Virus record (IMG/VR): IMGVR_UViG_3300013426_000028
Location: 31,643-95,642 of that record
DNA: 64,000 bases
Direction: 5' to 3' (one strand)
Origin: a virus
Lineage: Duplodnaviria > Caudoviricetes
The translations under genes were made by a program, and so were the position numbers. A model generated the notes under the pieces. It searched no databases. It had not been told where the DNA came from and saw only the letters and a list, made by a program, of their open reading frames with translations. Shown here piece after piece: positions 14,632 through 41,133 of the stretch. How positions within the stretch are numbered: the stretch's first letter is position 1; each line of letters opens with the position of its first letter.

Positions 14632-15538
14632 CCCCTCCCCAGGGGTTTTTCTTTTTTCACCCCCCTCTTTTACCCTTTCTTTACCCCCTGGGGGAAACGC
14701 GCAGTGAGCCATTGGGTATTGAGCTTGTGAAATAGCCATTGGCGAACGATGAGCGCGTGGGGGCAAACGCGTGCCACTCCGAGATGACACACTCTGCAAG
14801 TCTTGAGAGAAAAAAATGAAAATTTTTATAACTCACACACTTGCGAGAGCTTTTCAACGAAAAGTCGAGGCAAAATTGCTTTACTTTCTTTAAGGGGGAA
14901 TATAAACCGAAGGTTTATATGAAATTCTTTTTACTCTTTTTACTCTTTTCTTTATTTATTTCTTTTCTTTTTAATCAACTTTTTTCTTTTCGTTTTTCTT
15001 TCTTTTCGGTTTTTTCTCCTTTTTCTTGGGGGACGGTTCTTTAAAAGCAGGCGCGCGTGACGCACGTGTACGTGTATGCACGTATGTGTACATATACATA
15101 CATATACACATCACATACACAAAAACTAATGTGCCATTGTCCGCCAGCTTCAAAGCTAACTTCAGAACTCTTTAATACTCTTCCTTACCTAACTATTCTA
15201 AATATTCGAATACTTCAAGTTACTCAAATTCTTTGATATATTTACTTCAATGTAACTTCAATGAATCTTTGAACCAACTTCAATATAACTTAATTATTTT
15301 GCTTTTAACCTTGCTTAAGTTAAATTATAAATTTTACTCATACTTTTTTTCGGTTCGCTTCGCTTATTAAAAGGCGTAAGTGCTTATGCCCTTCCGCCAA
15401 TCTTCCATTTAAAAGTCTTGCTTCCGCAATCCTTTCAAATCCGCAAAGTGTATTTATTCTTTTTTTGTTTTCTTTTCTGTACTTTGAGTTTATGTAATAC
15501 CTAAAACTACTTAAAATGAAATATTCATCATTTTTTCT

Positions 15539-15830
15539 CCATTTAATTCAAAGAATCTCAAGTAAAGCAAGTTCTAATAAGTATTTATTCATTTTTATTG
15601 AATTTATTTCTTTATTCTTGATTTAATTCAAGAAAAAAATAGAAGGTTCTTGTGTACGCGCGTATACATGTATGCGTAACGTATAAAACTCTTATTTTTT
15701 AGATTTATTAAACACTCTTTAATTTATTTTCCATTTAATTCAAGAAATTAGGTCTAAAGTGGCTTAAGACAAGTATTTATTGGTCTGGAGTGTGTTTGGT
15801 TAGCTTTTATCCATTCAATTCAAGAAAAAA
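15539..15830 (+). repeat. Dispersed iteron-like repeat (CC)ATTYAATTCAA(GAAA) x4
   Basis: Copies near 15539, 15621, 15731 and 15811. Confidence 0.65.
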
Positions 15831-16131
15831 ATTAGTTAAATTTGATTCTGGAGTGTTTTGAGAGTTATACAAGGGTTTTGATTTATATGATTTAAGCGTT
15901 ACACTTTGTAACGGTTTGGGTGTAACAGTTTGGTATGTTTTGTTTCACACTTTCGAGGATTACTCGTTTATTCATTTGGGTGTTTAGAGAAAATTTTTAA
16001 GTAGGATTTAAGCAAGATAAGGTTTTTATTTAAGCCAGATTTTAAGTAGGATTTAAGTAGGATGTGTATGAGGCAGGTGGGTAGAAATAAAAGGTCGCGT
16101 GTATGGGCGCGTGCGCGATTTTTATATAGAA

Positions 16132-16147
16132 CGTTTCACGTGAAACA
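16132..16147. promoter_or_regulatory. parS: parS (ParB/Spo0J-binding) site
   Basis: CGTTTCACGTGAAACA, 15/16 match to TGTTTCACGTGAAACA. Confidence 0.85.
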
Positions 16148-16277
16148 TGCTGGGTCAAAGAAGAGAGAAGTCTTCTTTTTCTTCGATTACAAGCCTGTTT
16201 CCAAGATTTTTTAGAATGATTCTAAAAATAAACAATTGTTAAAATATCAACAAAATAAGTAAAACTGTTGAAAAAAG

Positions 16278-16326
16278 ATATCGAACACTTTGTTCGGAAA
16301 CTTAGAAATATCGAACATTTTGTTTG
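16278..16326. promoter_or_regulatory. Tandem palindromic operators CGAACA-N3-TGTTYG x2
   Basis: ATATCGAACACTTTGTTCG and ATATCGAACATTTTGTTTG, 30 bp apart. Confidence 0.55.
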
Positions 16327-16521
16327 ATTACTCAAAAGACGTCTGTGCAAACAAAAAGATAACCCCTTTATACCCCCTCAAGATAAAAAAACAAGGGGTT
16401 ATCCAAGAACCAGTTCATAAACAAGTTTGAGACATTAGGGAATAAAGCTCAAGAAGAATAAAAAGAATCAAAACAAAGCTCAAATTAGATCTTAAGAAAA
16501 TTAATAAACTTGCAAAAAAAC

Positions 16522-16549
16522 TTGACATTAGGAAAAAATCAATTATAAT
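16522..16549 (+). promoter_or_regulatory. sigmaA-type promoter
   Basis: TTGACA-16bp-TATAAT. Confidence 0.8.
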
Positions 16550-16574
16550 AGATAATGTAAAGGAGTGTGATAAT

Positions 16575-17983: not shown

Positions 17984-18008
17984 GGAGCGCAAGCTCTCTT
18001 TTTGTTTT
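17983..18008 (+). terminator. Intrinsic terminator
   Basis: GGGAGC-GCAA-GCTCTC plus T tract. Confidence 0.8.
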
Positions 18009-18504
18009 GTGCCTGTGGTGTGAATCTGTTTAAATCTGTTTGAATCATTTAGATTCTGTGTTCATCTGGTGTGTCTCAATAGAGTATGATGATTCATTTT
18101 GCAATTAGATAAATTAAGAATCCAGATGATCTAAATAATCTAGATGAATCTGATGAAGCATCAAGAAAAAAATCTGGCCCTAGAATAAAAAGCTTCCTGC
18201 CTCATTAAAAAACGTCGCCCCATCAAACATTCGATTTATTTTCCATTTACATGGAGAAAAAACAAACTGAATCCCTTCCAGGTATAATTTAAGGGGACTC
18301 CGCGTTCTTGTCTGTTATTTAAAGAACTACCTTTAAATAAATCGTCTAAAATCGAAAATAACTATATATAAACTCTTAGAAATTCCCAGAATCATTAAAT
18401 TAATTATATAATAATTAAAAAGAACTAAAAAGAATTAAAAGAATCTTCCCTCCATCAAAAAAAGTATCCCTCTCAAAAAAAATAAAAAAAGTTTTTAAAA
18501 CCTA

Positions 18505-18594
18505 TTGACTTATTTTTATATTCCTGTATACTTATTAGTGTAAAGGGGGAAAGGAAATGAACCTCCGAAGTACCCCTTACAAGTTCTTTGAAAA
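18505..18594 (+). promoter_or_regulatory. sigmaA promoter followed by boxB-like hairpin and rrn-type boxA
   Basis: TTGACT-16bp-TATACT; GTAAAGGGG/CCCCTTAC stem; AGTTCTTTGAAAA at 18582-18594. Confidence 0.75.
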
Positions 18595-19340
18595 ATCAAT
18601 ATCAGTCCATTATCATTTTGGATAAAAAAGAATTCATCACAGTGACGACGTCATAAAAGTACTAACTTAAACTGTAAAAAATAATCTGACAGTATAAACG
18701 AGGCGTCGGTACCGTGATGAACTCTTTTAAAAGCTAGTACGGAACTTGGCCAAATCCCGCTGATACTATTAAAATAACATTTATCATGTTTTCTCCAACC
18801 TATATTTAAATGAACCTTATCGGTTATTTTAATATCAAGGGAAATTGATGATGCAATGCAATACGCTATTAACCAAAATAATCAGCATAACTCAGTGAAT
18901 CCCCAATTCACTTCCCGCACTACTTTCCAAAAGATTCATTCAACCCATCCCCTTAACAGGGATGCTATGAGGGCTCTGTTTAGAAGATCCAATAGGAACA
19001 GTTATTTATATCTACTTATAAATAATTAAACTCCTTATGGTCCCTCTTTAAATGTGCAAATTTATTAATCCCTTCTTCAGAGCTTTCATAGGGTCCTTGT
19101 AAGGCCCAATTTTAGTTTTTATAGATGGACTAGGTAGACAAATTAGGTAGACAAAGAGGACGCCTGTTTTGGACAGACAGGTTTCCTTGAAGAGCAGAGA
19201 TCAGAACACCACACCACCTTCTAACCTGAAAGTATTTGATCAGTACCTTTTCTATCTCTGCTCCTTAAGGCAACTTATTTACCTTAGCTCACACCGTATT
19301 CACCACTTTTCCTCCTGGTAGTACGGTGTTTTCGTTTTCT
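18539..19340 (+). ncRNA. Putative long structured non-coding RNA (~800 nt)
   Basis: No ORF; many long stems (AAAAGAATTCATCAC/GTGATGAACTCTTTT, TATTAAAATAAC/GTTATTTTAATA, GAGCAGAGAT/ATCTCTGCTC); own promoter and boxA; terminal hairpin 19291-19329 followed by a T-rich tail. Confidence 0.65.
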
Positions 19341-20166
19341 CTTTATCCTCATCTAATCGGATCCTTTTTTCTTATTGACACTGTGTCAGTAATATTCTGT
19401 GCCCTTCTTTTTCCTCTTTTTTTATTATCTTCCTTCTTCCAGATGCTTGCAAATTGTAATCATCTGTTTTTCTCTATTTGCTCCTGTAAGTACAGTTTTT
19501 TAATACTTCGTGGAGCAAAAATTGCACTTCAAATTCTGTTTTTACCTTTTCAGGTGCAAAAAATCTCACCCTCTCGTTAAAAAACAATCGCCCTTATAGC
19601 TAATATATTAGCGATTAAGGTTACAAAAGAGGTTTATCGCTAATATTTGAGCGATTCTTTCACCATCATATAGTATCCCCTGCGAGAGCGCCCTTTTTGT
19701 GACACTGTAATGTCACTTTTCTGGATGTTTTCTATCTTTTTTTCTGGTTCTTTTCTGGATGATGCATCAATGACATAATTCTGGTATAATTATAACATAA
19801 TTATGTACCTCGTAGCTATATCATTATAATGATATATTTCACACTATTCTACTCCATATACTACACTACCTCCTCTCGTCCATTTCTTTTTTCGCTTATA
19901 GGCATACACCAGATTTTTCGCGCCTATAAGGCTGAAAAAATACGGGCGGCAGAAAAAAGGTGGCACTCCAGTAAAAAAAAGTGGGGCGCCCGTGTAAAAA
20001 GTGCCCGCTCGCATAGTTTCCCCTGGCTGCGTAGTTTTACGTCGGTCATTTCCCTTCGACGGTTATGGATTGCTTGGGGCTGGTTATAGTATCGCTTGGA
20101 TTACGGATTTACTTTGCTTGAATAAAAGTCAACTACTTAGACGGCGAGGAATAAAGGAGTGAACCT

Positions 20167-20244
20167 TTACTTTCGGCCCACTCCAGTCATGCAGCAAAAC
20201 AAATATACTGCACAAACAATGAAACTTAACATAAGTCCATTCAT
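20167..20244 (-). CDS. 25-aa hydrophobic peptide, type I toxin-like (not in ORF track)
   Basis: AAAGGAGGTGAG RBS; MNGLMLSFIVCAVYLFCCMTGVGRK; anti-SD sequence just after the stop. Confidence 0.6.
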   Translation of the reverse strand: MNGLMLSFIVCAVYLFCCMTGVGRK

Positions 20245-20300
20245 TATCTACTCACCTCCTTTCCAATATATTGTAACACATAAACTGTGTAATACAATCA

Positions 20301-21026: not shown

Positions 21027-21133
21027 AAGTTTTCCTCCTAATACTTTTATTTGTTCCTATTTGATTAATACCATTATACCACAAGTGTTGTCAGCACACA
21101 AGTGGTATAATGATTTTGTTTAATTAATTTGAA

Positions 21134-21400
21134 CTACCATTCACGATAATATTTTGTGTATGAAGTATTAGGATAAAGCTTAGAATCTTCTGCTTCTTCA
21201 CATTCGGTAACAGTAATTTCAACATGATGAGTATGACATCTTGTTTCATCTGCCATTACTTCATCTACTTTCTTCTTAAGAGCATCGGATACTTTTGAAA
21301 AGTTATCCATAGGTTCTGTTACTCTGAACTCAAGAGTTGGTTCGTTCATTTCATCACAACTAACAATTTTACAACTTCCAATATAAACAATTTTTCTCAT
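21134..21400 (-). CDS. Hypothetical protein
   Basis: RBS. Confidence 0.75.
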   Translation of the reverse strand: MRKIVYIGSCKIVSCDEMNEPTLEFRVTEPMDNFSKVSDALKKKVDEVMADETRCHTHHVEITVTECEEAEDSKLYPNTSYTKYYREW

Positions 21401-21421
21401 TTTTATTTTTCCTCCTATTGT

Positions 21422-21700
21422 TTATTTATTAAGATATACTTTTTTGTCATTATAGCCTAGATCTTCAATAATCTCTGGTAAATGTTCTGTTCCGAATCCT
21501 AATGATTCATAATTGTTAAACCCTGCGACTTCGTCCATTTGAAGTTGTTCGTGCCATACATTAAATATGTGAGCGTGATTGCCCTTGTCACAGACACAAC
21601 AAGACCAACCTTCTTCTCTTCCCATATATTGTCCTGTCCAGACATCTCCAAATGCATCTTTTACCTTGTACCAGTGGCCTTTAATAAATTTGCTTTTCAT
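21422..21700 (-). CDS. Hypothetical protein
   Basis: RBS. Confidence 0.75.
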   Translation of the reverse strand: MKSKFIKGHWYKVKDAFGDVWTGQYMGREEGWSCCVCDKGNHAHIFNVWHEQLQMDEVAGFNNYESLGFGTEHLPEIIEDLGYNDKKVYLNK

Positions 21701-21761
21701 AACATATTTCCTCCTTTGTTTTAGTTATGATAGACTGTTCCTATTGAATTTTAAATTTTAA

Positions 21762-22535
21762 TTATTTAATAATACGAATCTTAAGTTGTTCTGGATATGA
21801 TATACCTGCTACACTTAATACATCATAACAAATTTCTATGAATGATAAATCTTTATATTCTTCATCGAACATACAAGCTCCACCATCATCTTCTTTCAAT
21901 TTGTTTTTCCATATTTCTATATTCTCTTCTGTTATTTTATCTTGTCTTTCGGGATTATTTTCATACACCTCATAATAAGCGTATGATTCATATCCTTCCT
22001 CATCATCTTCTTCACTTAAATCTGAAGTTCCTTCACAAATATGAAAAATCCAATGTTCATGTTCATAATCATTAGAATCTCCTACAGCTATCCAGAAATC
22101 TGTTTTAGTATTTGGACGTCCTTCAATTTTCATCTGAGATAATTTTTTCATATTTTCTTGTTCTTTATAGACATCATTTATATCCACATTAAATGCTTGA
22201 TGAGCAATCAATTCAAGCCAATCAATATAATATGTTTGAATATTTTGATTATTTTTACATTCTTCTAAAAGTTCTGCGAATGATTTACTATAAACATCTT
22301 GTAAACCATAAATTTCATTTAAGTCATCAAGAATATAATTATCATAATATATTTCTAATCTATCTAATACAGCTGCTGTATTATCAAAACGATCCTTTTC
22401 GATTTTACCAAGATTAGCACCTTGTAAATCTTCTAAACTGTAATATTGTATTCCTTCTACTTCTTCCTGTTTGATTAATTCGAAGTCCATATCTGATAAC
22501 AACATAGCACAAATTTTTGCATAATTCTTTTTCAT
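21762..22535 (-). CDS. Acidic hypothetical protein
   Basis: 257 aa, RBS. Confidence 0.8.
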   Translation of the reverse strand: MKKNYAKICAMLLSDMDFELIKQEEVEGIQYYSLEDLQGANLGKIEKDRFDNTAAVLDRLEIYYDNYILDDLNEIYGLQDVYSKSFAELLEECKNNQNIQTYYIDWLELIAHQAFNVDINDVYKEQENMKKLSQMKIEGRPNTKTDFWIAVGDSNDYEHEHWIFHICEGTSDLSEEDDEEGYESYAYYEVYENNPERQDKITEENIEIWKNKLKEDDGGACMFDEEYKDLSFIEICYDVLSVAGISYPEQLKIRIIK

Positions 22536-22599
22536 ACCTTATTTCCTCCTTTGTATGATTTAATAAACGACTGTTCCTATTTAATTTTTAAATTCTTGT

Positions 22600-22737
22600 T
22601 TATCTTATATTTAACAATAAATACAAAATTAATGTTAAAAGTACAAGAAAAACTGAATATCCTTCTCTTTTTGCCTGTTTACATATAAAATATATTACAG
22701 CACCGAAAAAGACCAATAAGAAAATTGCAACTTCCAT
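22600..22737 (-). CDS. 45-aa 2-TM membrane peptide
   Basis: ATG 22737 behind AAAGGAGG. Confidence 0.65.
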   Translation of the reverse strand: MEVAIFLLVFFGAVIYFICKQAKREGYSVFLVLLTLILYLLLNIR

Positions 22738-22763
22738 ATTGCACGTCCCTCCTTTCTTTTTAA

Positions 22764-22850
22764 TTATTGAGGTGATAATCCACACCAAAGCACGAAAAAC
22801 AAAAGTAATAATAAAGCTAAAACTAAATAAGTATAATCTTCATTACTCAT
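22764..22850 (-). CDS. 28-aa single-TM peptide (not in ORF track)
   Basis: AAAGGAG RBS; MSNEDYTYLVLALLLLLFFVLWCGLSPQ. Confidence 0.6.
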   Translation of the reverse strand: MSNEDYTYLVLALLLLLFFVLWCGLSPQ

Positions 22851-22871
22851 AATATTTTCTCCTTTCTTTTA

Positions 22872-23501
22872 TTAATGTTGATGGAAGAAAGTCATTTGAC
22901 CTAACATCATCTTCCAACAATTTTTACAAGTCTTACAACTTCCTGGACATTGATATCCGCCTGTTGGTACATTTGCTTTAAATTCAGATGATTTTTTGAA
23001 TTCGACATATGTAACAGGAAGTAAATATTTATTCTTCACTGTTTTATTATATTCTTCATCCCACATACTTAAAACAATTTTAAGATTTACAGGAAGACTT
23101 TCAATGCCATGTTTGTCAATCCATTCATTGATTAATTCCCATTTCTTAGTAAATGCTAAGAATGTTGTTTGAGGACAAGCTAACGCAACTCTGACCATAC
23201 CGTCTAAATATTGTTCGTCAACTATATCTCCTGATGAATGCCATCTGAAATATTTATATGTAACATCGTCATTGTTTAAATATTTAATAACCTCATCAAA
23301 GAACGCTACTTTATCTTCATTATATGAATTGTAATTATCCATATGAGATTTTTTAACGTTTGGATATAAATGAGTTCCTCTACGAGCGTAGCAAAGTTTT
23401 GCACAAGGTGCATTTCTTCTACAAGTGATGATTGGTGGAAGATTTAAGGTTGGAACCTTATCTCCTAATTTACTATTTGATAAACTGATGTGTACTAACA
23501 T
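22872..23501 (-). CDS. Gp88-like Cys-rich phage protein
   Basis: NSKLG, TC....PC...CYA, YFRWHSSGDI, FTKK, CPGSCKTCKNCW, terminal H. Confidence 0.8.
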   Translation of the reverse strand: MLVHISLSNSKLGDKVPTLNLPPIITCRRNAPCAKLCYARRGTHLYPNVKKSHMDNYNSYNEDKVAFFDEVIKYLNNDDVTYKYFRWHSSGDIVDEQYLDGMVRVALACPQTTFLAFTKKWELINEWIDKHGIESLPVNLKIVLSMWDEEYNKTVKNKYLLPVTYVEFKKSSEFKANVPTGGYQCPGSCKTCKNCWKMMLGQMTFFHQH

Positions 23502-23576
23502 AACATTTTTCCTCCTTATATAAAATTTTGTTATGAATCGACTCGACTGTTCCTATTTAATTTTTAATTTATATGT

Positions 23577-24401
23577 TTATTCTATTAAAGAATAATACTC
23601 TATATGTCCTTCTTTGTCAATAAACTTAATACGATATTTGCTAATATTAACTAATTTTGTAACTTCTTCTGCAAATGTTCTAAAATCATCTTCTGAATAA
23701 GCATAATTTTCAGGCATAAATACATCTCGGTAATATTGATATAATTTTTGATCTTTAGATTCATCAGCCTCTATTACATATTTTTTATCATTATTGTCAT
23801 CATCTTTTTTATCGAATTCACCGTAATTTTCTTCATATTCAAATTGGTCTAAAATATAATTTACTCCAAAATAAGAAACATACGCTTCGTGATGTTCTGT
23901 GTCAATAGTAATTTCAACATCACCTTCTGACCATGCTTGTGTTTCGTTCATATCTTTATCAAAGATGCCAATTAAACCATCATTTCTGTCATAAGTGAAT
24001 TCTCCATCTTCAGCCATTCTATTTTCAATAAGTTTTAATGCTTCGTCAGATAACCCGATTTCTATTTTAAGATAATTATAAAAATTCTGACAAATAGGTC
24101 CTCGTAAATTTTCTGGAATATGATTTCCATTATGTAAATTATTGTCTTCACTAAATTGTTGCCAATATCCTTCATAAGTGATATTGGTTCTTTTAGCAAA
24201 TCTCAAGAAAGCTTCTATGGCAATCTGTTTAGCATTTGCTTTTGGAAATTTTTCTATCATCTTATTCATTAAATATAATATAATAAGAGTATTAACCGCA
24301 GCACTGTCTGTATAGGCTGACCAGTGTTGATACATATTTGCAACTCTTTCTTCTGTTTTTCCATCATAAACTGTAATAACTAATCTTTGTCCCATAATCA
24401 T
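23577..24401 (-). CDS. Hypothetical protein (MGQRL...YQHWSAYT family)
   Basis: 274-aa ORF with RBS. Confidence 0.8.
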   Translation of the reverse strand: MIMGQRLVITVYDGKTEERVANMYQHWSAYTDSAAVNTLIILYLMNKMIEKFPKANAKQIAIEAFLRFAKRTNITYEGYWQQFSEDNNLHNGNHIPENLRGPICQNFYNYLKIEIGLSDEALKLIENRMAEDGEFTYDRNDGLIGIFDKDMNETQAWSEGDVEITIDTEHHEAYVSYFGVNYILDQFEYEENYGEFDKKDDDNNDKKYVIEADESKDQKLYQYYRDVFMPENYAYSEDDFRTFAEEVTKLVNISKYRIKFIDKEGHIEYYSLIE

Positions 24402-24467
24402 TTTCCTCTTTTCTTTTAAATTTTTGGGAAGCCTACATGGCTTTGTTCCTATTTAATTTTAACATTT

Positions 24468-24767
24468 TTATTTCAATAGTTCAAGAATTCTTTGCTTATA
24501 TTCTGATTCTTTACACCATTGATTTGGCCCACCACGAAAATCTGTCAACGATTCTGCTGTTCTGTACATTGCTAAACCATTTACTGGTTCTGTTGTGATG
24601 TAAACAATCTTTCCATTATCTTCGTTTTGAATAAAGCCAATACATCCAACTTTTTGATAGCAAGTAACATCATCACGCAAATGAAATGTTAGATTTTTAC
24701 AATCTCTAAACATATATTTGATAGCACGTGTAGATTTTCCTTTGTTTGGTAATAAATAATTTTTCAT
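24468..24767 (-). CDS. Conserved phage hypothetical protein
   Basis: GCIGFI...MYRTA...DFRGGPNQW. Confidence 0.75.
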   Translation of the reverse strand: MKNYLLPNKGKSTRAIKYMFRDCKNLTFHLRDDVTCYQKVGCIGFIQNEDNGKIVYITTEPVNGLAMYRTAESLTDFRGGPNQWCKESEYKQRILELLK

Positions 24768-24769
24768 CT

Positions 24770-25684
24770 TTATTTTCCTCCTTTCTTTTCTATTTCAACT
24801 TGGTTTAAAATTTCTTCTAAATCAATTTGATTCAATAAATAAGGGCCTTTTCTTAATTTAACATAAGATTTTAAATCCTTTATTACAGGTAAATTATACG
24901 TTGCTTCACCTATATTTTGTACTTCTTCGAAGTGTCTTATTGTGGCTGTATCAACACTTATATTAATACCACTTTCGTATGCTTCAAAATGATATAATTT
25001 ATTTTTATAAACGAATAAGATGAACGCACATCCCCAAGCCCAATGAGAAGGTGAAGAAATATCTCGAATTAAAGTCATATTATTTATTGTATTTTCGGTA
25101 AAATAACATTTGAGTCTATTTCTTTTATATTCGCTATATGCTTCTTGATTTATCATTTTTTCTTTTTGATAATTATAATCAATTATCAAACTTAAATATT
25201 TATTCAGTAATTCAAGAGTTTCTTTGACATCTGACAACATTTGACTATATGAATTTAAAGGAAAATAATCAAACGAAAAATCTTTTAAATTAATAAATAT
25301 TTCGTTATGTTTTGGAGCAGGTGTTCTGATATATAGCCAAAATCCTTCTTTATTGTGTCTTTCTATTGTTGCCATATAAATAGATTCTAAAATAGGATAT
25401 TGTTCTATTAAACGAGAAGTTAATCTAAAATCTATAATTTGATTAGTTTCTATTTGCTTTTTTAATTTTTGTACTTGACCACTATTAATAATTTGCTCTT
25501 CTAATTTCATAATTTCTTTTGCTAATATTTGATTAGTTTTAAGTACTTCTAACTCGCTTTGTTCAAAATCATTGTATTTTAGGTCTATGTTTTTGATTGC
25601 TTCGCATTTTTCTATTTCGCAAGTTTCTTTAAAGTGTGTTATTTCTTCATAAGTTTGTTTTGTAATTTTATCATATAAATTCAT
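24770..25684 (-). CDS. Hypothetical protein
   Basis: 304 aa, RBS. Confidence 0.75.
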   Translation of the reverse strand: MNLYDKITKQTYEEITHFKETCEIEKCEAIKNIDLKYNDFEQSELEVLKTNQILAKEIMKLEEQIINSGQVQKLKKQIETNQIIDFRLTSRLIEQYPILESIYMATIERHNKEGFWLYIRTPAPKHNEIFINLKDFSFDYFPLNSYSQMLSDVKETLELLNKYLSLIIDYNYQKEKMINQEAYSEYKRNRLKCYFTENTINNMTLIRDISSPSHWAWGCAFILFVYKNKLYHFEAYESGINISVDTATIRHFEEVQNIGEATYNLPVIKDLKSYVKLRKGPYLLNQIDLEEILNQVEIEKKGGK

Positions 25685-25708
25685 AACTTTTTCCTCCTTT
25701 CTTTAGAA

Positions 25709-25996
25709 CTAGTCAGCATAACCTGCCGCTAGTTCTAATAAATACCATTTATCCATTTGATCAATCTCTTCCCAGGATTTTTCTCTTCTTAAAGCGTGTA
25801 ACATTTCAACATAGCAATCAGGATTAAGATTATTAGAATCTTTTAATCCTAAATAACTTGCGTGACTGCATAATTGTTCAAATTCTTCGTCATCAATACT
25901 GTTATCAAATAAACATTGTACTGAATTAGCAATGGTAATATCCCATACACTAATATTCTTTTCGTTTAAGACTTCTAATTTTTGTTTGTAATTCAT
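25709..25996 (-). CDS. Hypothetical protein
   Basis: RBS. Confidence 0.75.
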   Translation of the reverse strand: MNYKQKLEVLNEKNISVWDITIANSVQCLFDNSIDDEEFEQLCSHASYLGLKDSNNLNPDCYVEMLHALRREKSWEEIDQMDKWYLLELAAGYAD

Positions 25997-26067
25997 AATT
26001 ATTTTCCTCCTATATATGAATTTAACGACTGTTCCTATTGATTTATGTATTAAAATGAATAATAAAA

Positions 26068-26529
26068 TTATTTACTTAATAAGCGACGTATTCTTCCTAT
26101 TACTTGCGGTATCAATCTATCATTGATATATGCAGCAGAATATTTATTTTGAACATCATCTATTTTTGCTTTTTCTGTAATGTCAGAATATCCTTGTTCA
26201 AAAAGAAGCGAAACTTGTCTTAATTTATTATACGTTGATATGTAGTCATATAATTCATCAAGTTCTTCTTCTGTTAAAGGTGTTGCTTCCATTGTTTTTC
26301 TAAATTCTGTTTGTGTAAATAATCCTTGAGAATAATAATCAGGATATCCTTCAGGACGACCTAATATGACCATATTGAGATAGTCCCAATGTGAAGATTT
26401 TTCATCTCGTCCTTTAACAAATTGAGGTTCTCTTAACCAATATCTGCGTCCAATTTTATTACGACCTAATAAATAATGATTGACTCCTAAATAAACTTTT
26501 GTTTGTTTTAACATTTTTCTTTTACGCAT
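26068..26529 (-). CDS. Hypothetical protein, paralogue of 28145..28633
   Basis: YLLG...G..YWL..P, .GYS..TE.AKID, IN..L.P. Confidence 0.75.
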   Translation of the reverse strand: MRKRKMLKQTKVYLGVNHYLLGRNKIGRRYWLREPQFVKGRDEKSSHWDYLNMVILGRPEGYPDYYSQGLFTQTEFRKTMEATPLTEEELDELYDYISTYNKLRQVSLLFEQGYSDITEKAKIDDVQNKYSAAYINDRLIPQVIGRIRRLLSK

Positions 26530-26565
26530 ATTTTTTTCCTCCTATTTAATTAATTAAAAGAGAGA

Positions 26566-27039
26566 TTATCCGAAGACAATCTCTCCAAATAAAGCCCATT
26601 GGATAATGAAATCTCCACTTTCAGCATCAGCATAACAACCAAGATAATCTTCAATATCATCATATTTAGAGTGGGACATTTCTTGTCCAAGACCTTCTAA
26701 CACTCTATTGAGAGTCAACTTCCAAGGATCTCCTTCGACTCCTTCTTCATTATTTAAATCTGTTACACCTTCTTCTTCTGCATCTTCAAATTCAATATAT
26801 CCTCCATTCCATAGAATATAAGCAGCTATTTCTACAGTAGAACAATATTCATCTTCAGGATGTTCTGCTTTATATTTCTTTTCCCATTTAGTCCAATTTT
26901 CTGAAGCGTTGTCAAGCATTGCCCAATAACCAATTCCACCTTCAAGTGCAATAGCCATAACATCACACAAATTGTCTTGTGTAATTTCAACTGTTTTTGT
27001 AATAGTGATTTTTTTAGTTTCTACGTTTTTCATAATCAT
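26566..27039 (-). CDS. Conserved phage hypothetical protein
   Basis: ALEGGIGYWA...DA..GDFIIQWALFGEIVFG. Confidence 0.8.
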   Translation of the reverse strand: MIMKNVETKKITITKTVEITQDNLCDVMAIALEGGIGYWAMLDNASENWTKWEKKYKAEHPEDEYCSTVEIAAYILWNGGYIEFEDAEEEGVTDLNNEEGVEGDPWKLTLNRVLEGLGQEMSHSKYDDIEDYLGCYADAESGDFIIQWALFGEIVFG

Positions 27040-27085
27040 TTTTCCTCGATTCTTTGATTTTTGTTCCTATTTAGTTTTAATGTTC

Positions 27086-27358
27086 CTATTTAATTTGTTC
27101 TTTTAGTTTTTTGATTTCTCTTTGCATACGATCCATATTGTCAACTACACCGTTTGTGTATTCAACAATTTTTCTTTCGTTATATTCTTCTAAATCTTCA
27201 TTACGGCAATAAGGACAAACTCCTCTTGTACCATAATGATAAGCGTGATATGGATCATAAAGACCATATTCATCTTCGTAACAGAATCGTTCTTCTTCAA
27301 GATCATCTTCTGTCATAAAATGTTCACAATTTGGACAAAAATATATCATTTTGTTCAC
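27086..27358 (-). CDS. Zinc-ribbon protein
   Basis: CPNC...CPYC. Confidence 0.7.
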   Translation of the reverse strand: MNKMIYFCPNCEHFMTEDDLEEERFCYEDEYGLYDPYHAYHYGTRGVCPYCRNEDLEEYNERKIVEYTNGVVDNMDRMQREIKKLKEQIK

Positions 27359-27367
27359 CGCCTTTCT

Positions 27368-27826
27368 TTATTTAACAGCAAGAATATCTTTAATATTTTT
27401 ATTAAAGACTTCTGGAGTTTCTTTCTTAACCCATTGAGAAGATTGAGTAACTCCCATAGCTTCTTCTTTTGTTATTGGATTACCATCAAAATAATAACCA
27501 ATAACTTTTGGACGATGAAGGAAGATTTTTGATGTTGTCATTCGGATATATGTTTCACCTTTATTTTCAATCATCCATCTATTTTTCCATTCTCCCCAAG
27601 GCAAGACTTCTTTAATTTCACCTACCATTCCAATTGCTTGTCTTTTTTCAATAACAGATTTAATATTAGAATATCTAACACCAAATCTTACTACAGATTG
27701 TACAACTTTTGTAATAACGTGTCCTTTAAAATTTTTGTTTGGAGTAATGTTTGTTTGATATGTTACTTGAACATAAGCTCCTTGATGTTTGTTTGAAATA
27801 ATATTTAATAATTCTTGTTTTTCCAT
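27368..27826 (-). CDS. Hypothetical protein
   Basis: RFGVRYSNIKSV...LPWGEW. Confidence 0.75.
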   Translation of the reverse strand: MEKQELLNIISNKHQGAYVQVTYQTNITPNKNFKGHVITKVVQSVVRFGVRYSNIKSVIEKRQAIGMVGEIKEVLPWGEWKNRWMIENKGETYIRMTTSKIFLHRPKVIGYYFDGNPITKEEAMGVTQSSQWVKKETPEVFNKNIKDILAVK

Positions 27827-27853
27827 GATAATTTTTCCTCTCTTTCTATATAT

Positions 27854-27882
27854 ATTATATCATGTTTAATAATGTTTGTAAA
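27854..27882 (-). promoter_or_regulatory. sigmaA-type promoter
   Basis: TTTACA-17bp-TATAAT with TG extension. Confidence 0.7.
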
Positions 27883-27890
27883 GACAAAGA

Positions 27891-28148
27891 CTATCCTAAA
27901 TAGATAGCCTTGTCTTTGTCGTCTAAAATCATTAAGTCGTGATTTATGGCTTCATAATATTCTCTGGTTGAAGAACCTTCTTCTTTTTCAATACTTTTAA
28001 TTGTTTCTCCTGAATAATATAAAGCATGATATCCGTTGGCTTCTTCATCATCTGTGACAAATATCACATAATCGCCGTGACCTTTTCGAATTTCTTCTCT
28101 AAGATATTTATATAAATCTTCGACTGTTAACGCTCCACATTTTGTCAT
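27891..28148 (-). CDS. Hypothetical protein
   Basis: TDDEEANGYH motif; ATGA overlap. Confidence 0.75.
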   Translation of the reverse strand: MTKCGALTVEDLYKYLREEIRKGHGDYVIFVTDDEEANGYHALYYSGETIKSIEKEEGSSTREYYEAINHDLMILDDKDKAIYLG

Positions 28149-28633
28149 TTTCTTTCACCTCCTAACAAATTGTCAATACGTTCGAATATTGCTGGTAACA
28201 AAGTTTTATTAATACAATTCGCAAAATCTTCGTTTTTTAATACATCAATTTTTGCTGCTTCTGTTTGATGACTATAACCTCGATGTAATATTTCTGCTGT
28301 TGTTATTAAATTATAACACGACATCATATAATCAATTAATTGATATTTTTCATTTTCATTTAAAGTAGTTTCTACAAAAAACTTATCAAATGAGTATATG
28401 GCGAAGCCTGTCGTATTATTTAAAAATAAATAATTAAAATGAGTATAAAAATCAATCTCTCTGCTTAATTCAGAATTACGATTGTTAGATAAAATATCTA
28501 CACAGCCACAATTCCAATACTCATGCCAATCGCACACCCATTCAGGTGCTTGTAGCCAATATTTTTTGCCTTCTTTATCCTTTCCTAATAAATAAAACTT
28601 TTTTCCACGCCAATAAATTACTTTCTTTTTCAT
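28145..28633 (-). CDS. Hypothetical protein, paralogue of 26068..26529
   Basis: ATG 28633 behind AAGGAGGTG. Confidence 0.75.
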   Translation of the reverse strand: MKKKVIYWRGKKFYLLGKDKEGKKYWLQAPEWVCDWHEYWNCGCVDILSNNRNSELSREIDFYTHFNYLFLNNTTGFAIYSFDKFFVETTLNENEKYQLIDYMMSCYNLITTAEILHRGYSHQTEAAKIDVLKNEDFANCINKTLLPAIFERIDNLLGGERK

Positions 28634-28652
28634 AATTTTCACCTCCTTCCTT

Positions 28653-31094
28653 TTATCCTCTACAACAAAGAGCACCATATTGAGAATGAATTGATGTTTC
28701 ATCAACATTTCCTGTTTCTTGTGCCCATTGTAATAAAGCTTGCACAATTTCAGCATCAGGATTACTATTACATAATCCGTGAACTTGTCTTATAGAAAAC
28801 TTATTATCAATAGAACCATTTTGAGAAAGTTCTATTGTAAAATATGGTTCAGACAAATTACTATTTTTTCTGAAAAACAATATTGCTGTATGTTTGTTTG
28901 CAAACGTTTCTTGATAAGAGCTTACACAATGATGTAAGATTTTTCCTTCTGTGGATAAATCTTCTACTTTTTCAGGAACTAAAATAGTAAATTCATCATT
29001 GCTCCAAGCAAATTTCTTTTGTAATATTTCCTTCCAAGGTTTATATCTTTCATTTAATAGTTTGGATTGGTCAGCACTGATTATTTGTTTAAAAGCATCA
29101 TAATTTTCCGACATAAAATTATGAAGATAATGAATTTTCATTTTAAGATCTGATTGTAGAATTGCTTGTTTTAAACAATAAACAGAAATTTGTGGAAAAT
29201 GTTTTGTAACACATTCACAAACATATGACAAATTATTATTTTTAAAATCTTCTTTTGTTGTTGGAAAATCAATTGGAATTAATTTAATTTTTTCCTTCAT
29301 TTGATAATAATCATATAATTCTGATAATTTTGCCACGTCGGATGCACTAATTTTATTTAATATTCGAATAATTTCAGAATCTGAAAATCCTTGTTCTGGA
29401 ATTATAATGTTATAAAATGTCATAATATTAAGTATCAAATCTTTTACATATAAATGATGACCTTTGTCACAAATCAGATTTTTAAACATTTCTAACGTTA
29501 TATATTTACCATATTTTTTAGCAATTTGTTTTTTAGATAATGTTTTTCTATTTGAAGCAATTCTACAATATCCATAATTATAACAAGAAGGATAATTTGT
29601 TATGGACATGTTTCCTTTTAAAATATTAATCAAATAATAAAATAATTCTGCATGAAAATCAGTACAAACATAATTTTTATCGAAAATTGTTGCATCTTTT
29701 ATAAAATCTTCGTAATTTTTCTTACTTAAATAACATTGTTCATACATTTTAGTCTTTTGTATATCACAAGCAGTATCAAATAATAATTGTGTCACTCGCG
29801 ACGCTGTACGAGAGTTAGCAATATTTGTTGAATAAAACAATTTTCTTGCCTCTATAAATTCATTAACGTATGTAGAACCATAATGCTTAATAAAACTTTC
29901 ATATGTCATATCTTTATAGTATAAAGGATTAAACAAAGGCTCTAATATTTTTTGATATATTAATTCTCCAATAGTAAAATCTTTATTATAATAAGCATAA
30001 GAATAATGACCTTTTTTACAATAAGAGTTATTAATGCTATACGAAGACAAAATTTCTGCAAAACTATTATTTGGAAACATTGAATTAAAAATGTAATTTA
30101 AACCATGAATTTCTTGAATCTCAGAAATATGTTCTTGAATACAATTTATAATTTGTTGAAAACTCTGTACATCTGAATAATTAACACTATTGAAAGTTTG
30201 ATATTTATTGGTTTTATCAATTGTTAATTCTCCTTGTGGAGAAGCGAGAAAACATTCGCAGTTTCCTGTCTTTTTGTCATATACGTGTAATATTATATTT
30301 CTCCAATAGTTTTTATTATACATTAAAAGATACACATTATCTTGATCAGATTCAATATGTAATATATTGTTTGATTCAATCAATTCTTTTATTTTGTTTT
30401 GAAACATGTCTTGGTATGTTAACAATTTTGATTTTTGAATTGTTTTATGTGCAAATTTCGTTTTGTTTGGATGTTTAATACATTCAATAAATGTTGCAAT
30501 AGGAAACATTTCATTATAATCTACAGAGTGATTTATTTGCCACCAATTTTTTAATACAGTTAAATCAAAACCTTGTTCCTTCAATATTTTTGTTGAAAAA
30601 GGTGATAAACGTCCAAATGGATATTTATCACCTTGATAAGAATCTATTGTATTTATATTTACAAATCTAATATCTTGGGTATTGGATGCATTACTAATTT
30701 TCCAAGATCTTTCTTTTGGTTCAACAAAACGTTTGTTTGAATCATACATTTCCCAATCATTTGTAATATAAAACATAGGTTCATTACGATATAAATAAGG
30801 AAATGCCTTTCTATTTGTAACATAGGAGTTAAACAAATATATGCCAACACCCTTTTTATTATTAATAGTACATTTTTCAATGAAAATATAGTTTTTAGAA
30901 GCATTTTTAATAGGAAATAATAAAGCATAATCTTTAAAATCTTCTAATACTAGTTGTCCTTGTTTATCATAAATTTTTCCTGCTGGTGTTACTGTATACA
31001 TTGGTAATTGGCATAATTGTTCGTGTGTTTCAACTTCTACCTCTCTTAAATTAGGCATGTTGTTAAATGTGTTTACTTTAATTTCTTTATTCAT
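28653..31094 (-). CDS. Large protein with C-terminal PcfJ-like domain
   Basis: EGKILHHCVSSY...ILFFRK...PYFTIEL...IRQVHGLCN; start at ATG 31094 behind GGAGG. Confidence 0.8.
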   Translation of the reverse strand: MNKEIKVNTFNNMPNLREVEVETHEQLCQLPMYTVTPAGKIYDKQGQLVLEDFKDYALLFPIKNASKNYIFIEKCTINNKKGVGIYLFNSYVTNRKAFPYLYRNEPMFYITNDWEMYDSNKRFVEPKERSWKISNASNTQDIRFVNINTIDSYQGDKYPFGRLSPFSTKILKEQGFDLTVLKNWWQINHSVDYNEMFPIATFIECIKHPNKTKFAHKTIQKSKLLTYQDMFQNKIKELIESNNILHIESDQDNVYLLMYNKNYWRNIILHVYDKKTGNCECFLASPQGELTIDKTNKYQTFNSVNYSDVQSFQQIINCIQEHISEIQEIHGLNYIFNSMFPNNSFAEILSSYSINNSYCKKGHYSYAYYNKDFTIGELIYQKILEPLFNPLYYKDMTYESFIKHYGSTYVNEFIEARKLFYSTNIANSRTASRVTQLLFDTACDIQKTKMYEQCYLSKKNYEDFIKDATIFDKNYVCTDFHAELFYYLINILKGNMSITNYPSCYNYGYCRIASNRKTLSKKQIAKKYGKYITLEMFKNLICDKGHHLYVKDLILNIMTFYNIIIPEQGFSDSEIIRILNKISASDVAKLSELYDYYQMKEKIKLIPIDFPTTKEDFKNNNLSYVCECVTKHFPQISVYCLKQAILQSDLKMKIHYLHNFMSENYDAFKQIISADQSKLLNERYKPWKEILQKKFAWSNDEFTILVPEKVEDLSTEGKILHHCVSSYQETFANKHTAILFFRKNSNLSEPYFTIELSQNGSIDNKFSIRQVHGLCNSNPDAEIVQALLQWAQETGNVDETSIHSQYGALCCRG

Positions 31095-31190
31095 AATTTT
31101 TCCTCCAATTTTTCCTTTTTCAAGGGATAAGAATATTTTTATGGAGAAAATATTCAAAACCTTGTTCCTATTTAATTTTCAATTTAAAGA

Positions 31191-31757
31191 TTAATAATCA
31201 CAGTCTTCGTCTTCATCATAATCGTCATAATCATCTTCATCATAATCTTCGCAACATTCCATTCTTTCCTCCTGAAGAGCTTTTTCAACTCTTTCTTTTA
31301 ATATGACATCTAAATCTTCTTGAGATAATTTAGATTTTAGATCATTACAATTTGCAATTTCTTTACCTTCGTGGTCATAAGCAATTTTACCTTTGACTAG
31401 AATTTCAATTCCATTATCTAACTTAAAGCTATGATCTGGAATCATTTCTGCTTCTACGAATTGTTGAGCAATATTACATTGCATATAGACTTGAGACATA
31501 TTCATTCCCATTGAAGCATAAAGATTTAACATCTTTTCTTTATCTTCTGCGGAGCTTGCAAATCCAATTAACATTTCTGTTCTAGGATCATAAACTGGAA
31601 TTAATTCACCTGCATCAAGCATTTTAATAGTATCTAAAATACCTTTTTGAGGCATTTCTTCATATTTTTTTAATAAAGCTTCTTTAGCAGCTTTCTTTTC
31701 TGCTTCTTTTCTTTCTTCTGCTGCTCTTTTTAAATTTTCTAATACTGTGTTTTTCAT
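31191..31757 (-). CDS. Hypothetical protein with acidic tail
   Basis: RBS. Confidence 0.75.
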   Translation of the reverse strand: MKNTVLENLKRAAEERKEAEKKAAKEALLKKYEEMPQKGILDTIKMLDAGELIPVYDPRTEMLIGFASSAEDKEKMLNLYASMGMNMSQVYMQCNIAQQFVEAEMIPDHSFKLDNGIEILVKGKIAYDHEGKEIANCNDLKSKLSQEDLDVILKERVEKALQEERMECCEDYDEDDYDDYDEDEDCDY

Positions 31758-31823
31758 AACTGTTTTCCTCCTATAATATAAATGTTATGATGTTCCTATT
31801 GAGTTATTGTTCCTATTTAACGA

Positions 31824-32030
31824 TTACGCTACTATTTCATATAGTTTAATATCGTAATTCCATTCCTCTTTGCCTTCTGCTACCATTATAGCCATATGAT
31901 AACATTCTAATTGAAAGTATGAAATTTGTCTAATAAATTTATGACACTCTTCAACAGAGTTATAATATTTAGTTTGTAATAAATATGCATCTGTTTCTTC
32001 TTCGTAAATTTCTACAAAATATCTTTTCAT
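31824..32030 (-). CDS. Hypothetical protein
   Basis: RBS. Confidence 0.7.
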   Translation of the reverse strand: MKRYFVEIYEEETDAYLLQTKYYNSVEECHKFIRQISYFQLECYHMAIMVAEGKEEWNYDIKLYEIVA

Positions 32031-32031
32031 C

Positions 32032-32475: not shown

Positions 32476-32477
32476 AA

Positions 32478-39792: not shown

Positions 39793-39840
39793 ACGTTTTG
39801 AGTTTCAAGGATTACGTTAAACCTATGATGATTTTAATCA

Positions 39841-41074: not shown

Positions 41075-41133
41075 GTGTTTTCTTTTAAATAGTGTTTTTA
41101 ACGTGGTTGGCGCTTCCACGGTCTATTGATAGA

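What the first reader, a model, noticed from the sequence alone, without database searches (positions are those of the whole stretch)
18505..19340. rRNA-operon-style promoter + boxB/boxA driving an unidentified ~800-nt structured RNA
Seen: TTGACT-16-TATACT, a hairpin, then AGTTCTTTGAAAA. This matches the Bacillus rrn boxA used for Nus-factor antitermination of untranslated RNA (established). It is followed by about 750 nt with no ORF and many long nested stems. I find no tRNA, tmRNA, RNase P or SRP signature. Its size is in the range of the phage-associated large ncRNAs GOLLD and ROOL, but I cannot match it by eye, so it may be a new class.
Basis: partly seen in the sequence, partly recalled or inferred. 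Interest (0 to 1): 0.8.

Follow-up and report, generated by a model that had tools for sequence, protein, structure and literature searches.

The report
Large phage RNA with rRNA-style leader
An uncultured gut phage carries a gene-free 800-base unit that starts with the signals bacteria put before ribosomal RNA genes, as the known giant phage RNA GOLLD does; it is most likely a new large non-coding RNA, but no transcript has been seen and its job is unknown.

Summary
At 18505-18532 lies a host-type promoter, one of seven similar copies in this phage. It is the only copy not followed by a ribosome-binding site and start codon. It is followed by a hairpin (18539-18581), an exact GTTCTTTGAAAA boxA (18583-18594), about 745 ORF-free bases and a strong terminator (19291-19340).

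The boxA is 11/12 identical to the word found before 16S rRNA in 30 of 30 genomes of the candidate host family. NusB is present in 58 of 61 of those genomes; Rho was found in none.

No Rfam family matches. The unit folds far better than shuffles (z -6.8 to -8; controls +0.8 to -4.0). In the one full relative (L020), frames are broken, stem arms are kept, and stem tips vary in sequence and length.

Independently, 63 of 69 GOLLD RNAs in viral contigs carry the same promoter-hairpin-boxA leader. This RNA shares nothing else with GOLLD.

Weak points: there are no RNA data and only one full homologue. The global fold is not confirmed by substitutions (14 kept, 31 broken).

This scan has noted boxA-led phage RNAs before on many other genomes. 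Verdict: probably a new family of a known kind.

The parts
18473..18500 (+). A/T-rich UP-element-like tract upstream of the -35
   Evidence: It is identical in L020. The same word recurs before 16S rRNA (L026, L058, L063, L072, L082) and before tRNA operons (L025) in genomes of the candidate host order. Many unrelated contigs in gut runs share only 18474-18516.
18505..18532 (+). Sigma-A-type promoter: TTGACT, 16-base spacer, TATACT. Predicted start near 18538.
   Evidence: Scores 10/12 in the promoter scan. It belongs to a promoter family with 4 copies in the window (0 expected) and 7 + strand copies in the record. All the other copies run into an RBS and ATG within about 15-60 nt. It is 100% identical in L020.
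18539..18581 (+). 5' hairpin in the boxB position, ending 1-2 nt before boxA
   Evidence: Folds at -14 kcal/mol in the window and -13 in L020, but z is only -1.25. L020's change at 18567 falls in an unpaired bulge; its change at 18579 turns an A-U pair into G-U. A hairpin sits in the same position in host 16S leaders and GOLLD leaders.
18583..18594 (+). boxA: GTTCTTTGAAAA
   Evidence: Single copy in the 95.6-kb record. It is 11/12 to GATCTTTGAAAA, found in 30/30 16S leaders of the candidate host family. It is identical to the boxA of 48 of 63 GOLLD leaders. It is kept exactly in L020 although a 1-nt deletion lies 2 nt upstream.
18626..18728 (+). Long hairpin domain 1: arms 18626-18650 and 18704-18728, variable tip 18651-18703
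   Evidence: Arms of 25 nt, 84% complementary. z = -5.9. Both arms are identical in L020, while the tip is rewritten and carries a 96-nt insertion. The X7 contig has the same 96-letter insertion.
18731..18925 (+). Middle domain closed by helix 18731-18742 / 18915-18925. Contains hairpin 18894-18912 with a CCCCA loop.
   Evidence: The closing helix and the hairpin are predicted with p > 0.5 independently in the window and in L020. The hairpin has z = -6.6. The stretch 18873-18890 is variable, with non-triplet indels in L020 and X3.
18956..19100 (+). 21-bp long-range helix 18956-18978 / 19078-19100
   Evidence: Predicted in both sequences. Its two substitutions keep pairing (G-C to G-U, U-G to U-A).
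18992..19000 (+). The only + strand copy of the ATAGGAACA box
   Evidence: 13 copies in the window against 0.78 expected. The other 12 are on the - strand, 20-60 nt before the RBS of - strand genes. The core is kept in L020.
19091..19121 (+). Internal terminator-like hairpin (19091-19107) with a U-rich run. It overlaps the 3' arm of the 21-bp helix.
   Evidence: Flagged by the terminator scan. L020 carries 5 changes here, all compatible with the hairpin: G-C to A-U changed on both sides, U-G to U-A, and C.A to U-A.
19121..19146 (+). Tandem 13-nt repeat (TAGGTAGACAAAT/G, two copies)
   Evidence: Read. L020 has a 22-nt deletion here that leaves one partial, diverged copy. This removes the partner of the MFE long-range helix 18600-18611 / 19124-19136.
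19179..19276 (+). Long hairpin domain 2: arms 19181-19201 and 19254-19274, variable tip
   Evidence: Arms of 21 nt, 86% complementary. z = -4.9. The core of the arms is identical in L020, while the tip is rewritten with a 27-nt insertion.
19291..19340 (+). Intrinsic terminator: 14-bp stem 19291-19329, loop CUUUUCCUCC at 19306-19315, then a U-rich tail
   Evidence: z = -5.8. It is 100% identical in L020 up to the U-tract, after which identity drops to 63-69%. The loop is the exact complement of GGAGGAAAA, the RBS word of 12 - strand genes.

Best explanation
This is a self-contained gene for a non-coding RNA of about 800 nt (about 18538 to about 19338, + strand) that belongs to no catalogued family.

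How it is made (inferred from signals): the host sigma-A RNA polymerase starts at a strong promoter of the stable-RNA type. The first 60 nt of the transcript form a hairpin followed by boxA. As in the host's own rrn operons, boxA should load NusB-S10 and build a termination-resistant, fast-elongating complex that helps the RNA fold. That complex would carry the polymerase through the hairpin-rich, untranslated body, including the internal hairpin-plus-U run at 19091-19121, to the strong terminator at 19291-19340. The candidate host family appears to lack Rho. The benefit would then be speed, read-through of pauses and intrinsic terminators, and folding, rather than protection from Rho.

What the RNA does (speculative): it is a chain of long imperfect hairpins with C-rich exposed loops. 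The 3' hairpin loop is complementary to the RBS word of the phage's own - strand gene cassettes. My preferred guess is a trans-acting regulator of translation built like S. aureus RNAIII. A purely architectural RNA like GOLLD or ROOL is the alternative.
For: Signals:
- The promoter family is real: 4 copies against 0 expected and 7 on the + strand of the record.
- This copy alone is followed by a hairpin and boxA instead of an RBS and ATG.
- The upstream A/T word is shared with rRNA and tRNA promoters of the candidate host order.
- boxA is a single exact copy in 95.6 kb. It is 11/12 to the word in 30/30 family 16S leaders, where it also follows a hairpin, and 10/11 to the NusB-binding B. subtilis consensus (PMC13753749).
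- NusB is present in 58/61 family genomes.

Precedent: 63 of 69 GOLLD loci picked by an internal GOLLD motif carry promoter, covarying hairpin and GTTCTTTGAAA 691-824 nt upstream. Controls gave 2/69 and 1/62. A viral tmRNA plus tRNA block has the leader too.

Non-coding:
- No ORF of 60 aa or more.
- The 22-codon frame across boxA is frameshifted in L020 while boxA itself is kept.
- The 57-aa frame is broken in L020 and X3 by non-triplet indels. All 3 substitutions in its shared part change the amino acid.

Unit boundaries: conservation runs from 18473 to the terminator's U-tract, then falls to 63-69%.

Structure:
- z = -6.75 to -8 against +0.8 to -4.0 in 14 controls. L020's copy has z = -4.3. 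The + strand folds better than the - strand.
- Stem arms are invariant while tips are rewritten, with 96-nt and 27-nt insertions.
- Hairpin 19091-19107 has changes on both sides of a pair that keep pairing.

Function hint: GGAGGAAAA occurs 13 times against 0.67 expected, always on the - strand. Twelve copies are RBSs and the thirteenth is the complement of the terminator loop.
Against: - No expression data could be obtained.
- Only one full homologue (L020, about 90% identical) and fragments exist, so covariation has almost no power.
- Tested on L020, the single-sequence MFE model is not upheld: among changed pairs, 14 keep pairing and 31 break, about what chance gives. One long-range helix is deleted outright.
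- Conserved blocks (97-100%) are no better conserved than neighbouring coding DNA (95-98% at 20-22 kb). Conservation alone therefore does not prove constraint.
- The 5' hairpin is not thermodynamically remarkable (z -1.25).
- boxA differs at one position from the candidate host family's word.
- The host assignment rests on a phage contig binned into a MAG and on promoter similarity.
- NusB was not found in that MAG itself, which is incomplete.
- The anti-RBS loop could be a relic of a - strand gene start.
Confidence: 0.68

Rival explanations
1. The transcript is not an end product. It is a long antiterminated leader, or a convergent antisense transcript, whose role is to read into 19340-20300. 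There it would express small + strand ORFs or collide with and silence the incoming - strand transcription.
For: boxA complexes suppress terminators, so some read-through of 19291-19340 is expected (established for rrn complexes; PMC13753749, PMC8632103). The unit lies at the point where + and - strand blocks converge near 20.3 kb. Conserved repeats and palindromes lie at 19376-19388 and 19594-19656.
Against: Conservation collapses right after the U-tract, to 63-69%. The + strand ORFs downstream are not conserved in L020: 84 aa against 68 aa with a different sequence, and 86 aa against 56 aa. The terminator is the most stable local element (z -5.8) and is perfectly conserved. No sizeable + strand gene follows until 49.7 kb.
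Confidence: 0.1
2. Decayed DNA: remnants of former genes behind a leftover promoter, with a chance boxA. The fold score would come from a few inverted repeats.
For: The global fold is not upheld by L020. Conservation is no higher than in coding neighbours. A - strand RBS word (19307-19315) and a + strand copy of a - strand box (18992-19000) could be relics.
Against: The chance of an exact boxA within 60 nt of one of seven promoters, directly after a hairpin, is about 1e-4 by composition (my estimate). The same architecture recurs in 63/69 GOLLD loci. Indels fall in stem tips and spare the arms. The unit boundaries coincide with the promoter and the terminator. z is an outlier among 15 windows.
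Confidence: 0.08
3. A DNA-level or replication function: the untranslated, structured transcript primes or activates a nearby origin, in the way ColE1 RNA II or T4 origin transcripts do (established precedents).
For: It is an ORF-free region near a second ORF-free gap at 15154-16574 with compositional switches (scan notes e1-5971988 and e1-5972011). It carries a 13-nt tandem repeat at 19121-19146.
Against: There are no iteron array, no DnaA-box-like series and no AT-rich unwinding element next to the 3' end. One repeat copy is largely deleted in L020. A clean intrinsic terminator is not expected for a primer RNA.
Confidence: 0.06
4. A very divergent member of GOLLD or ROOL that the Rfam models miss.
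For: Same size class, same phage setting and same boxA leader as GOLLD.
Against: No GOLLD or ROOL match even at E up to 10 on 851 bases. A profile built from 63 full GOLLD loci hits only the boxA leader, at E 0.04-0.1. The body looks like serial long hairpins rather than the multi-pseudoknot GOLLD 3' domain.
Confidence: 0.05

Closest known systems
Bacterial rrn operon leader (promoter with UP element, boxB-like hairpin, boxA) and the NusB-S10 antitermination complex
   Same: The order of elements is the same: promoter, hairpin, boxA. The core UCUUUGAAA is the same. The A/T-rich upstream word is shared with rRNA and tRNA promoters of the candidate host order. An untranslated RNA follows (PMC13753749).
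   Different: What follows is not rRNA. One base differs from the candidate host family's word (GTTC against GATC). No boxC was looked for. Binding of Nus factors is inferred, not shown.
GOLLD RNA (Rfam RF02032), giant phage and prophage RNA of unknown function that forms RNA-only nanocages (PMC12286853)
   Same: Phage-encoded, about 800 nt, with its own promoter and terminator. The leader is the same, hairpin plus GTTCTTTGAAA, in 63/69 loci tested here.
   Different: There is no match to the conserved GOLLD 3' domain or to a profile of full GOLLD loci beyond boxA. The GOLLD loci here use Bacteroidota-type promoters (TAnnTTTG), whereas this one uses a sigma-A -35/-10 promoter. No tRNA genes lie nearby.
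ROOL RNA (Rfam RF03087)
   Same: A large phage or prophage RNA of Firmicutes and gut or rumen samples, of unknown function (PMC12286853, PMC5737381).
   Different: No Rfam match. I did not test whether ROOL has a boxA leader.
Staphylococcus aureus RNAIII (large multi-hairpin regulatory RNA; from established knowledge, Boisset et al. 2007)
   Same: A long RNA made of serial hairpins with C-rich loops. The loop of the 3' terminator hairpin is complementary to Shine-Dalgarno regions of a set of target genes.
   Different: No sequence or Rfam relation. No embedded peptide gene. Pairing with targets is untested. It is phage-encoded and has a boxA leader.

Membership tests
rrn-type boxA antitermination leader | boxA word matching the lineage's rrn consensus | tested here: met
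   GTTCTTTGAAAA against GATCTTTGAAAA in 30/30 family 16S leaders (11/12). Also 10/11 to the B. subtilis consensus AUGAUCUUUGAAA (PMC13753749).
rrn-type boxA antitermination leader | Hairpin (boxB position) directly upstream of boxA, close to the transcript's 5' end | tested here: met
   The hairpin at 18539-18581 ends 1-2 nt before boxA. The layout is the same in host leaders. The hairpin's energy is not exceptional (z -1.25).
rrn-type boxA antitermination leader | Strong stable-RNA-type promoter upstream | tested here: met
   Scores 10/12 to the consensus. The upstream A/T word is shared with 16S and tRNA promoters of the host order.
rrn-type boxA antitermination leader | Binds NusB-S10 and makes RNA polymerase termination-resistant | not testable with these tools
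   Only the partners could be checked: NusB in 58/61 family genomes, NusG in G001, Rho in 0/61 over the cut-off.
GOLLD (RF02032) | Conserved 3' domain (Rfam covariance model, 416 positions) | tested here: not met
   No match at the gathering score or at E up to 10. The same model scores 277-321 bits on five viral loci.
GOLLD (RF02032) | Sequence relation over the 5' region | tested here: not met
   Profiles of 63 GOLLD loci hit only 18566-18611, the boxA region, at E 0.04-0.11.
ROOL (RF03087), OLE, raiA, 6S, RNase P, tmRNA, SRP, group I/II introns | Match to the family's covariance model | tested here: not met
   All 4227 Rfam 15 models were searched. Nothing exceeded 18.1 bits in 18500-19350. 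ARAGORN found none.
Structured non-coding RNA (generic) | Base pairs supported by compensatory changes across homologues | tested here: inconclusive
   There is one full homologue. One hairpin (19091-19107) has a pair changed on both sides plus two repairs, and tip pairs 18672-18692 and 18673-18691 covary. Against this, the global MFE model shows 14 pairs kept and 31 broken.
Structured non-coding RNA (generic) | A transcript of the predicted size and strand | not testable with these tools
   No RNA run could be used.
RNAIII-like anti-Shine-Dalgarno regulator | Exposed C-rich loop complementary to the RBS of target mRNAs | tested here: met
   The loop CUUUUCCUCC is the complement of GGAGGAAAA(G). 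Twelve - strand RBSs carry the word, against 0.67 copies expected. Actual pairing and regulation were not tested.

The most novel reading that the evidence does not exclude
The RNA is a new class of phage riboregulator. It would be mass-produced by borrowing the host's rRNA transcription mode. Its 16S-like CCUCCU loop, and perhaps its other C-rich loops, would capture the Shine-Dalgarno regions of the phage's own - strand gene cassettes or of host mRNAs, and so time or redirect translation during infection. The internal ATAGGAACA box would allow a shorter 3' form (about 19005-19338) to be made together with its targets.
Probability: 0.15. Interest if true: 0.8.

Novelty: new member of a known kind. 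Interest (0 to 1): 0.55.

Why it matters
Large phage RNAs such as GOLLD and ROOL are among the most striking RNAs with no known function. This locus adds a new, unrelated family from a gut phage of small-genome Bacilli.

It also shows that the rRNA-style hairpin-boxA leader is a shared way of expressing such RNAs across host phyla: it sits before 63 of 69 GOLLD loci examined here. No paper in the searchable library connects GOLLD with boxA. That gives a practical handle. Scanning phage genomes for promoter, hairpin and boxA followed by ORF-free DNA finds large non-coding RNAs without needing covariation.

It also yields a testable claim: phages use host Nus factors to make their stable RNAs, even in hosts that seem to lack Rho.

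The anti-RBS loop offers a concrete functional experiment, which GOLLD and ROOL have lacked.

Tried and rejected
Homologue hunting
- blastn and tblastn against 50,697 phage records found only a 39-base A/T match.
- Viral contigs gave nothing with the neighbour protein, its alignment, the promoter-plus-boxA pattern, or two exact 19-20-mers from the RNA.
- Metagenome contigs gave one relative (L004) that stops about 75 bases before the promoter.
- 400 genomes each from the order and the family of G001 gave only G001.
The contigs behind the 12 related neighbour proteins P0002-P0013, one of them 136 kb, could therefore not be fetched. This is the main reason covariation is untested.

Expression
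- No RNA holder was listed by the look-up of sequencing runs. All four runs laid were contigs, and the run labelled RNA-Seq is probably DNA. Nothing can be said about expression.

Other checks that led nowhere
- Non-overlapping 150-nt z-scores were uninformative because the windows cut the long stems. A first script timed out.
- The 96-nt insertion of L020 has no other copy in G000 or G001, so it is not a repeated mobile element.
- Counting 8-mers complementary to RBS windows does not single out this RNA as a whole. Control segments score as high. Only the loop position of the 19306-19315 word is notable.
- blastn and nhmmer of the RNA against 11 other boxA-led viral loci found nothing beyond boxA.

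Full report
SETTING. The window is bases 31643-95642 of a 95.6-kb IMG/VR virus record, estimated 69% complete. It encodes a portal protein, a sigma factor, a CCA-adding enzyme, homing endonucleases and an IscB-type HNH protein. Rfam finds HEARO, Pistol and Twister-P5 RNAs elsewhere in it. Genes run on the + strand up to 17983 and on the - strand from 20301. The finding lies in the gap between these two blocks.

THE OBSERVATION.
- Promoter. It belongs to a family defined by a 28-base word, with 4 copies in the window and none in 100 shuffles. The whole record has 7 copies on the + strand. Every other copy runs within about 15-60 nt into a ribosome-binding site and ATG. This one runs into a hairpin and AGTTCTTTGAAAA.
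- boxA. GWTCTTTGAAAA occurs once in the record, and the backwards-read control gives zero. Relaxed matches are at chance level. The case therefore rests on exactness and position.
- ORFs. From 17984 to 19325 neither strand has an ORF of 60 aa or more.
- Known RNAs. There are no tRNA or tmRNA genes. No Rfam family matches at the gathering score or at E up to 10, even when only 851 bases are searched; the best hit is 18 bits.

IS THE LEADER REALLY OF THE rrn TYPE? One relative was found. It is a 138.7-kb contig in a MAG titled 'uncultured Bacilli bacterium' from a Hadza gut sample (L020, genome G001). Taking that MAG as a pointer to the host lineage gave four results.
- The A/T-rich word just upstream of the -35 (18473-18500) recurs in 33 of 401 genomes of its order. 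Where I checked, it lies before 16S rRNA or tRNA operons.
- In 30 of 30 16S leaders from its family, a hairpin is followed directly by GATCTTTGAAAACT, 85-141 nt before the 16S 5' end. One further leader from the wider order reads GATTTTTGAAAA. The MAG's own truncated rrn leader has the family word too.
- A 2026 paper reports the B. subtilis rrn consensus AUGAUCUUUGAAA directly after a small 5' hairpin, and shows that it binds NusB (PMC13753749).
- The phage word differs from the family word at one base. NusB is present in 58 of 61 family genomes, NusG is present in G001, and no Rho reaches the cut-off in 61 genomes.

If this family is the host, boxA cannot serve to block Rho. It would serve elongation speed, read-through of pauses and intrinsic terminators, and co-transcriptional folding, as argued for rrn complexes (PMC8632103).

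AN INDEPENDENT PRECEDENT. A loose scan of viral contigs for TTGAC, a gap and boxA gave mostly chance hits. After filtering for a -10 hexamer and for no open frame across boxA, 11 loci remained.
- Five of these have a GOLLD RNA about 500 nt downstream.
- One has a tmRNA plus tRNAs.

To remove ascertainment bias I collected 80 GOLLD loci by an internal GOLLD motif.
- 69 of them have enough upstream sequence.
- 63 of those carry GTTCTTTGAAA 691-824 nt upstream of the motif.
- Controls gave 2/69 on the antisense strand and 1/62 downstream.
- Each boxA is preceded by a promoter and a short hairpin whose stem varies while pairing is kept.

No paper in the library links GOLLD with boxA or antitermination. 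Notes of this scan report the same on at least 43 other genomes. I reached it independently before reading them. The architecture in the window is therefore the standard way in which at least one known giant phage RNA is expressed.

IS THE BODY NON-CODING AND A UNIT? Alignment with L020 shows near-identity from 18473 through the promoter, hairpin and boxA, then conserved blocks separated by rewritten stretches.
- A 1-nt deletion 2 nt before boxA shifts the only small frame that crosses it (22 codons from 18557) but leaves boxA intact.
- The 57-aa frame (18856-19029) is broken in L020. It is also broken in a third variant seen in run X3, which has insertions of 1, 1, 1, 7 and 1 bases.
- The three substitutions in the shared part of that frame all change the amino acid.
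- Identity is 98% up to the terminator's U-tract, then drops to 63-69%, the lowest in 5.5 kb.
- These points argue for a non-coding unit bounded by promoter and terminator.
- They do not show extra constraint, because coding DNA at 20-22 kb is equally conserved (95-98%).

IS IT STRUCTURED? Thermodynamically, yes.
- z = -6.75 and -8.0 in my run, against +0.8 to -4.0 for 14 same-length controls from the phage.
- The - strand gives -4.6.
- L020's 918-nt copy gives -4.3.
- Local elements are strong: domain 18620-18735 has z -5.9, 19176-19280 has -4.9, the terminator -5.8, and the CCCCA-loop hairpin -6.6.

The pattern of change fits an RNA. The 25-nt and 21-nt arms are invariant. Their tips are rewritten and take 96-nt and 27-nt insertions. 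The 96-nt insertion is also in a contig of run X7 and is not a repeated element. Hairpin 19091-19107 carries five changes, all compatible with pairing, including one G-C to A-U exchange.

The global single-sequence model, however, fails its test. Among pairs changed in L020, 14 keep pairing and 31 break. The long-range helix 18600-18611 / 19124-19136 loses its partner through a deletion. Helices predicted independently in both sequences are listed under parts. I read the RNA as a chain of long hairpins plus two longer-range helices, not as a proven 'ornate' fold.

RELATION TO KNOWN FAMILIES. It is not GOLLD, ROOL or any other Rfam family. Profiles from 63 GOLLD loci hit only the boxA leader. 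It works like GOLLD at the level of expression but is not a member.

FUNCTION. This part is inference.
- GGAGGAAAA occurs 13 times in the window against 0.67 expected, always on the - strand.
- Twelve copies are the RBS of - strand genes. The thirteenth is the complement of the terminator loop CUUUUCCUCC (the loop is defined).
- The loop contains CCUCCU, the 16S anti-Shine-Dalgarno core.
- The RNA also holds the only + strand copy of ATAGGAACA. That box otherwise stands 20-60 nt before those same RBSs (12 copies).
- Both links were first noted by other first-stage notes. I confirmed the counts but not any interaction.

This suggests a regulator of the - strand cassettes built like RNAIII. A relic of a former - strand gene start is the dull alternative.

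VERDICT. This is probably a genuine new large phage RNA gene with an rrn/GOLLD-type leader (about 0.68). Its function is open. Expression and covariation are untested because no RNA data were available, and because the tool that would fetch the dozen known relatives was closed.

Noticed in passing
L091, L104, L148, L150, L157 and 63 of 69 loci among L206-L281: GOLLD RNAs in viral contigs begin with a promoter (mostly the Bacteroidota type, TAnnTTTG), a short hairpin whose stem covaries, and GTTCTTTGAAA 691-824 nt before an internal GOLLD motif. Controls gave 2/69 and 1/62. No paper in the library mentions this.
   Followed up: yes
L160 (reverse strand), promoter near 6376, tmRNA 5871-6295, tRNAs 5380-5620: A viral contig has promoter, hairpin and GATCTTTGAAAA directly before a tmRNA gene and three tRNA genes.
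   Followed up: partly
L149:8581-10480 (159-kb viral contig); also L094, L123, L128, L112: More promoter-hairpin-boxA leaders in viral contigs with no Rfam hit downstream. L149 is followed by about 1.7 kb without an ORF over 58 aa. These are possible further unknown large RNAs.
   Followed up: no
Genomes G001-G413 (family of the MAG that holds L020): This small-genome Bacilli family (0.4-2.7 Mb) keeps boxA before 16S in 30/30 leaders and NusB in 58/61 genomes. No Rho reaches the cut-off in 61 genomes. boxA/NusB is thus retained in an apparently Rho-less lineage.
   Followed up: partly
window 18255-18420: A conserved non-coding block upstream of the promoter (87-90% to L020 and L004). It has CAGGTATAAT and a hairpin GTTCTT...AAGAAC. 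The spacer at 18425-18472 is deleted in L020. It may be another small transcript or a control region.
   Followed up: no
window 19376-19388 and 19594-19656: A perfect palindrome TGACAC-T-GTGTCA is conserved in L020 just after the terminator. Further on, two 23-nt direct and inverted repeats (TAGCTAATAT...AGCGATT) look like operator sites.
   Followed up: no
window 19829-20089 (+) and 19844-20014 (-): Two overlapping ORFs lie on opposite strands at the convergence point. The - strand frame is the better conserved in L020 (56 against 68 aa with similar sequence), so the + strand 86-aa ORF is doubtful.
   Followed up: partly
window 39840-39905 (-), 41026-41075 (-), 44909-45123 (-): Pistol ribozyme, type-P5 twister ribozyme and HEARO RNA. 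HEARO lies next to an HNH/IscB-like gene at 43614-44852. This phage is unusually rich in catalogued RNAs.
   Followed up: no
window 21052-32542 (-) and 18992-19000 (+): ATAGGAACA occurs 13 times against 0.78 expected. Twelve copies precede - strand genes, each followed 20-60 nt later by an RBS. The only + strand copy lies inside the RNA.
   Followed up: partly
window 15154-16574: A second ORF-free gap of 1.4 kb (no ORF of 60 aa or more), with composition switches on both sides. The 808-nt fold from 14900 has z -3.4.
   Followed up: no
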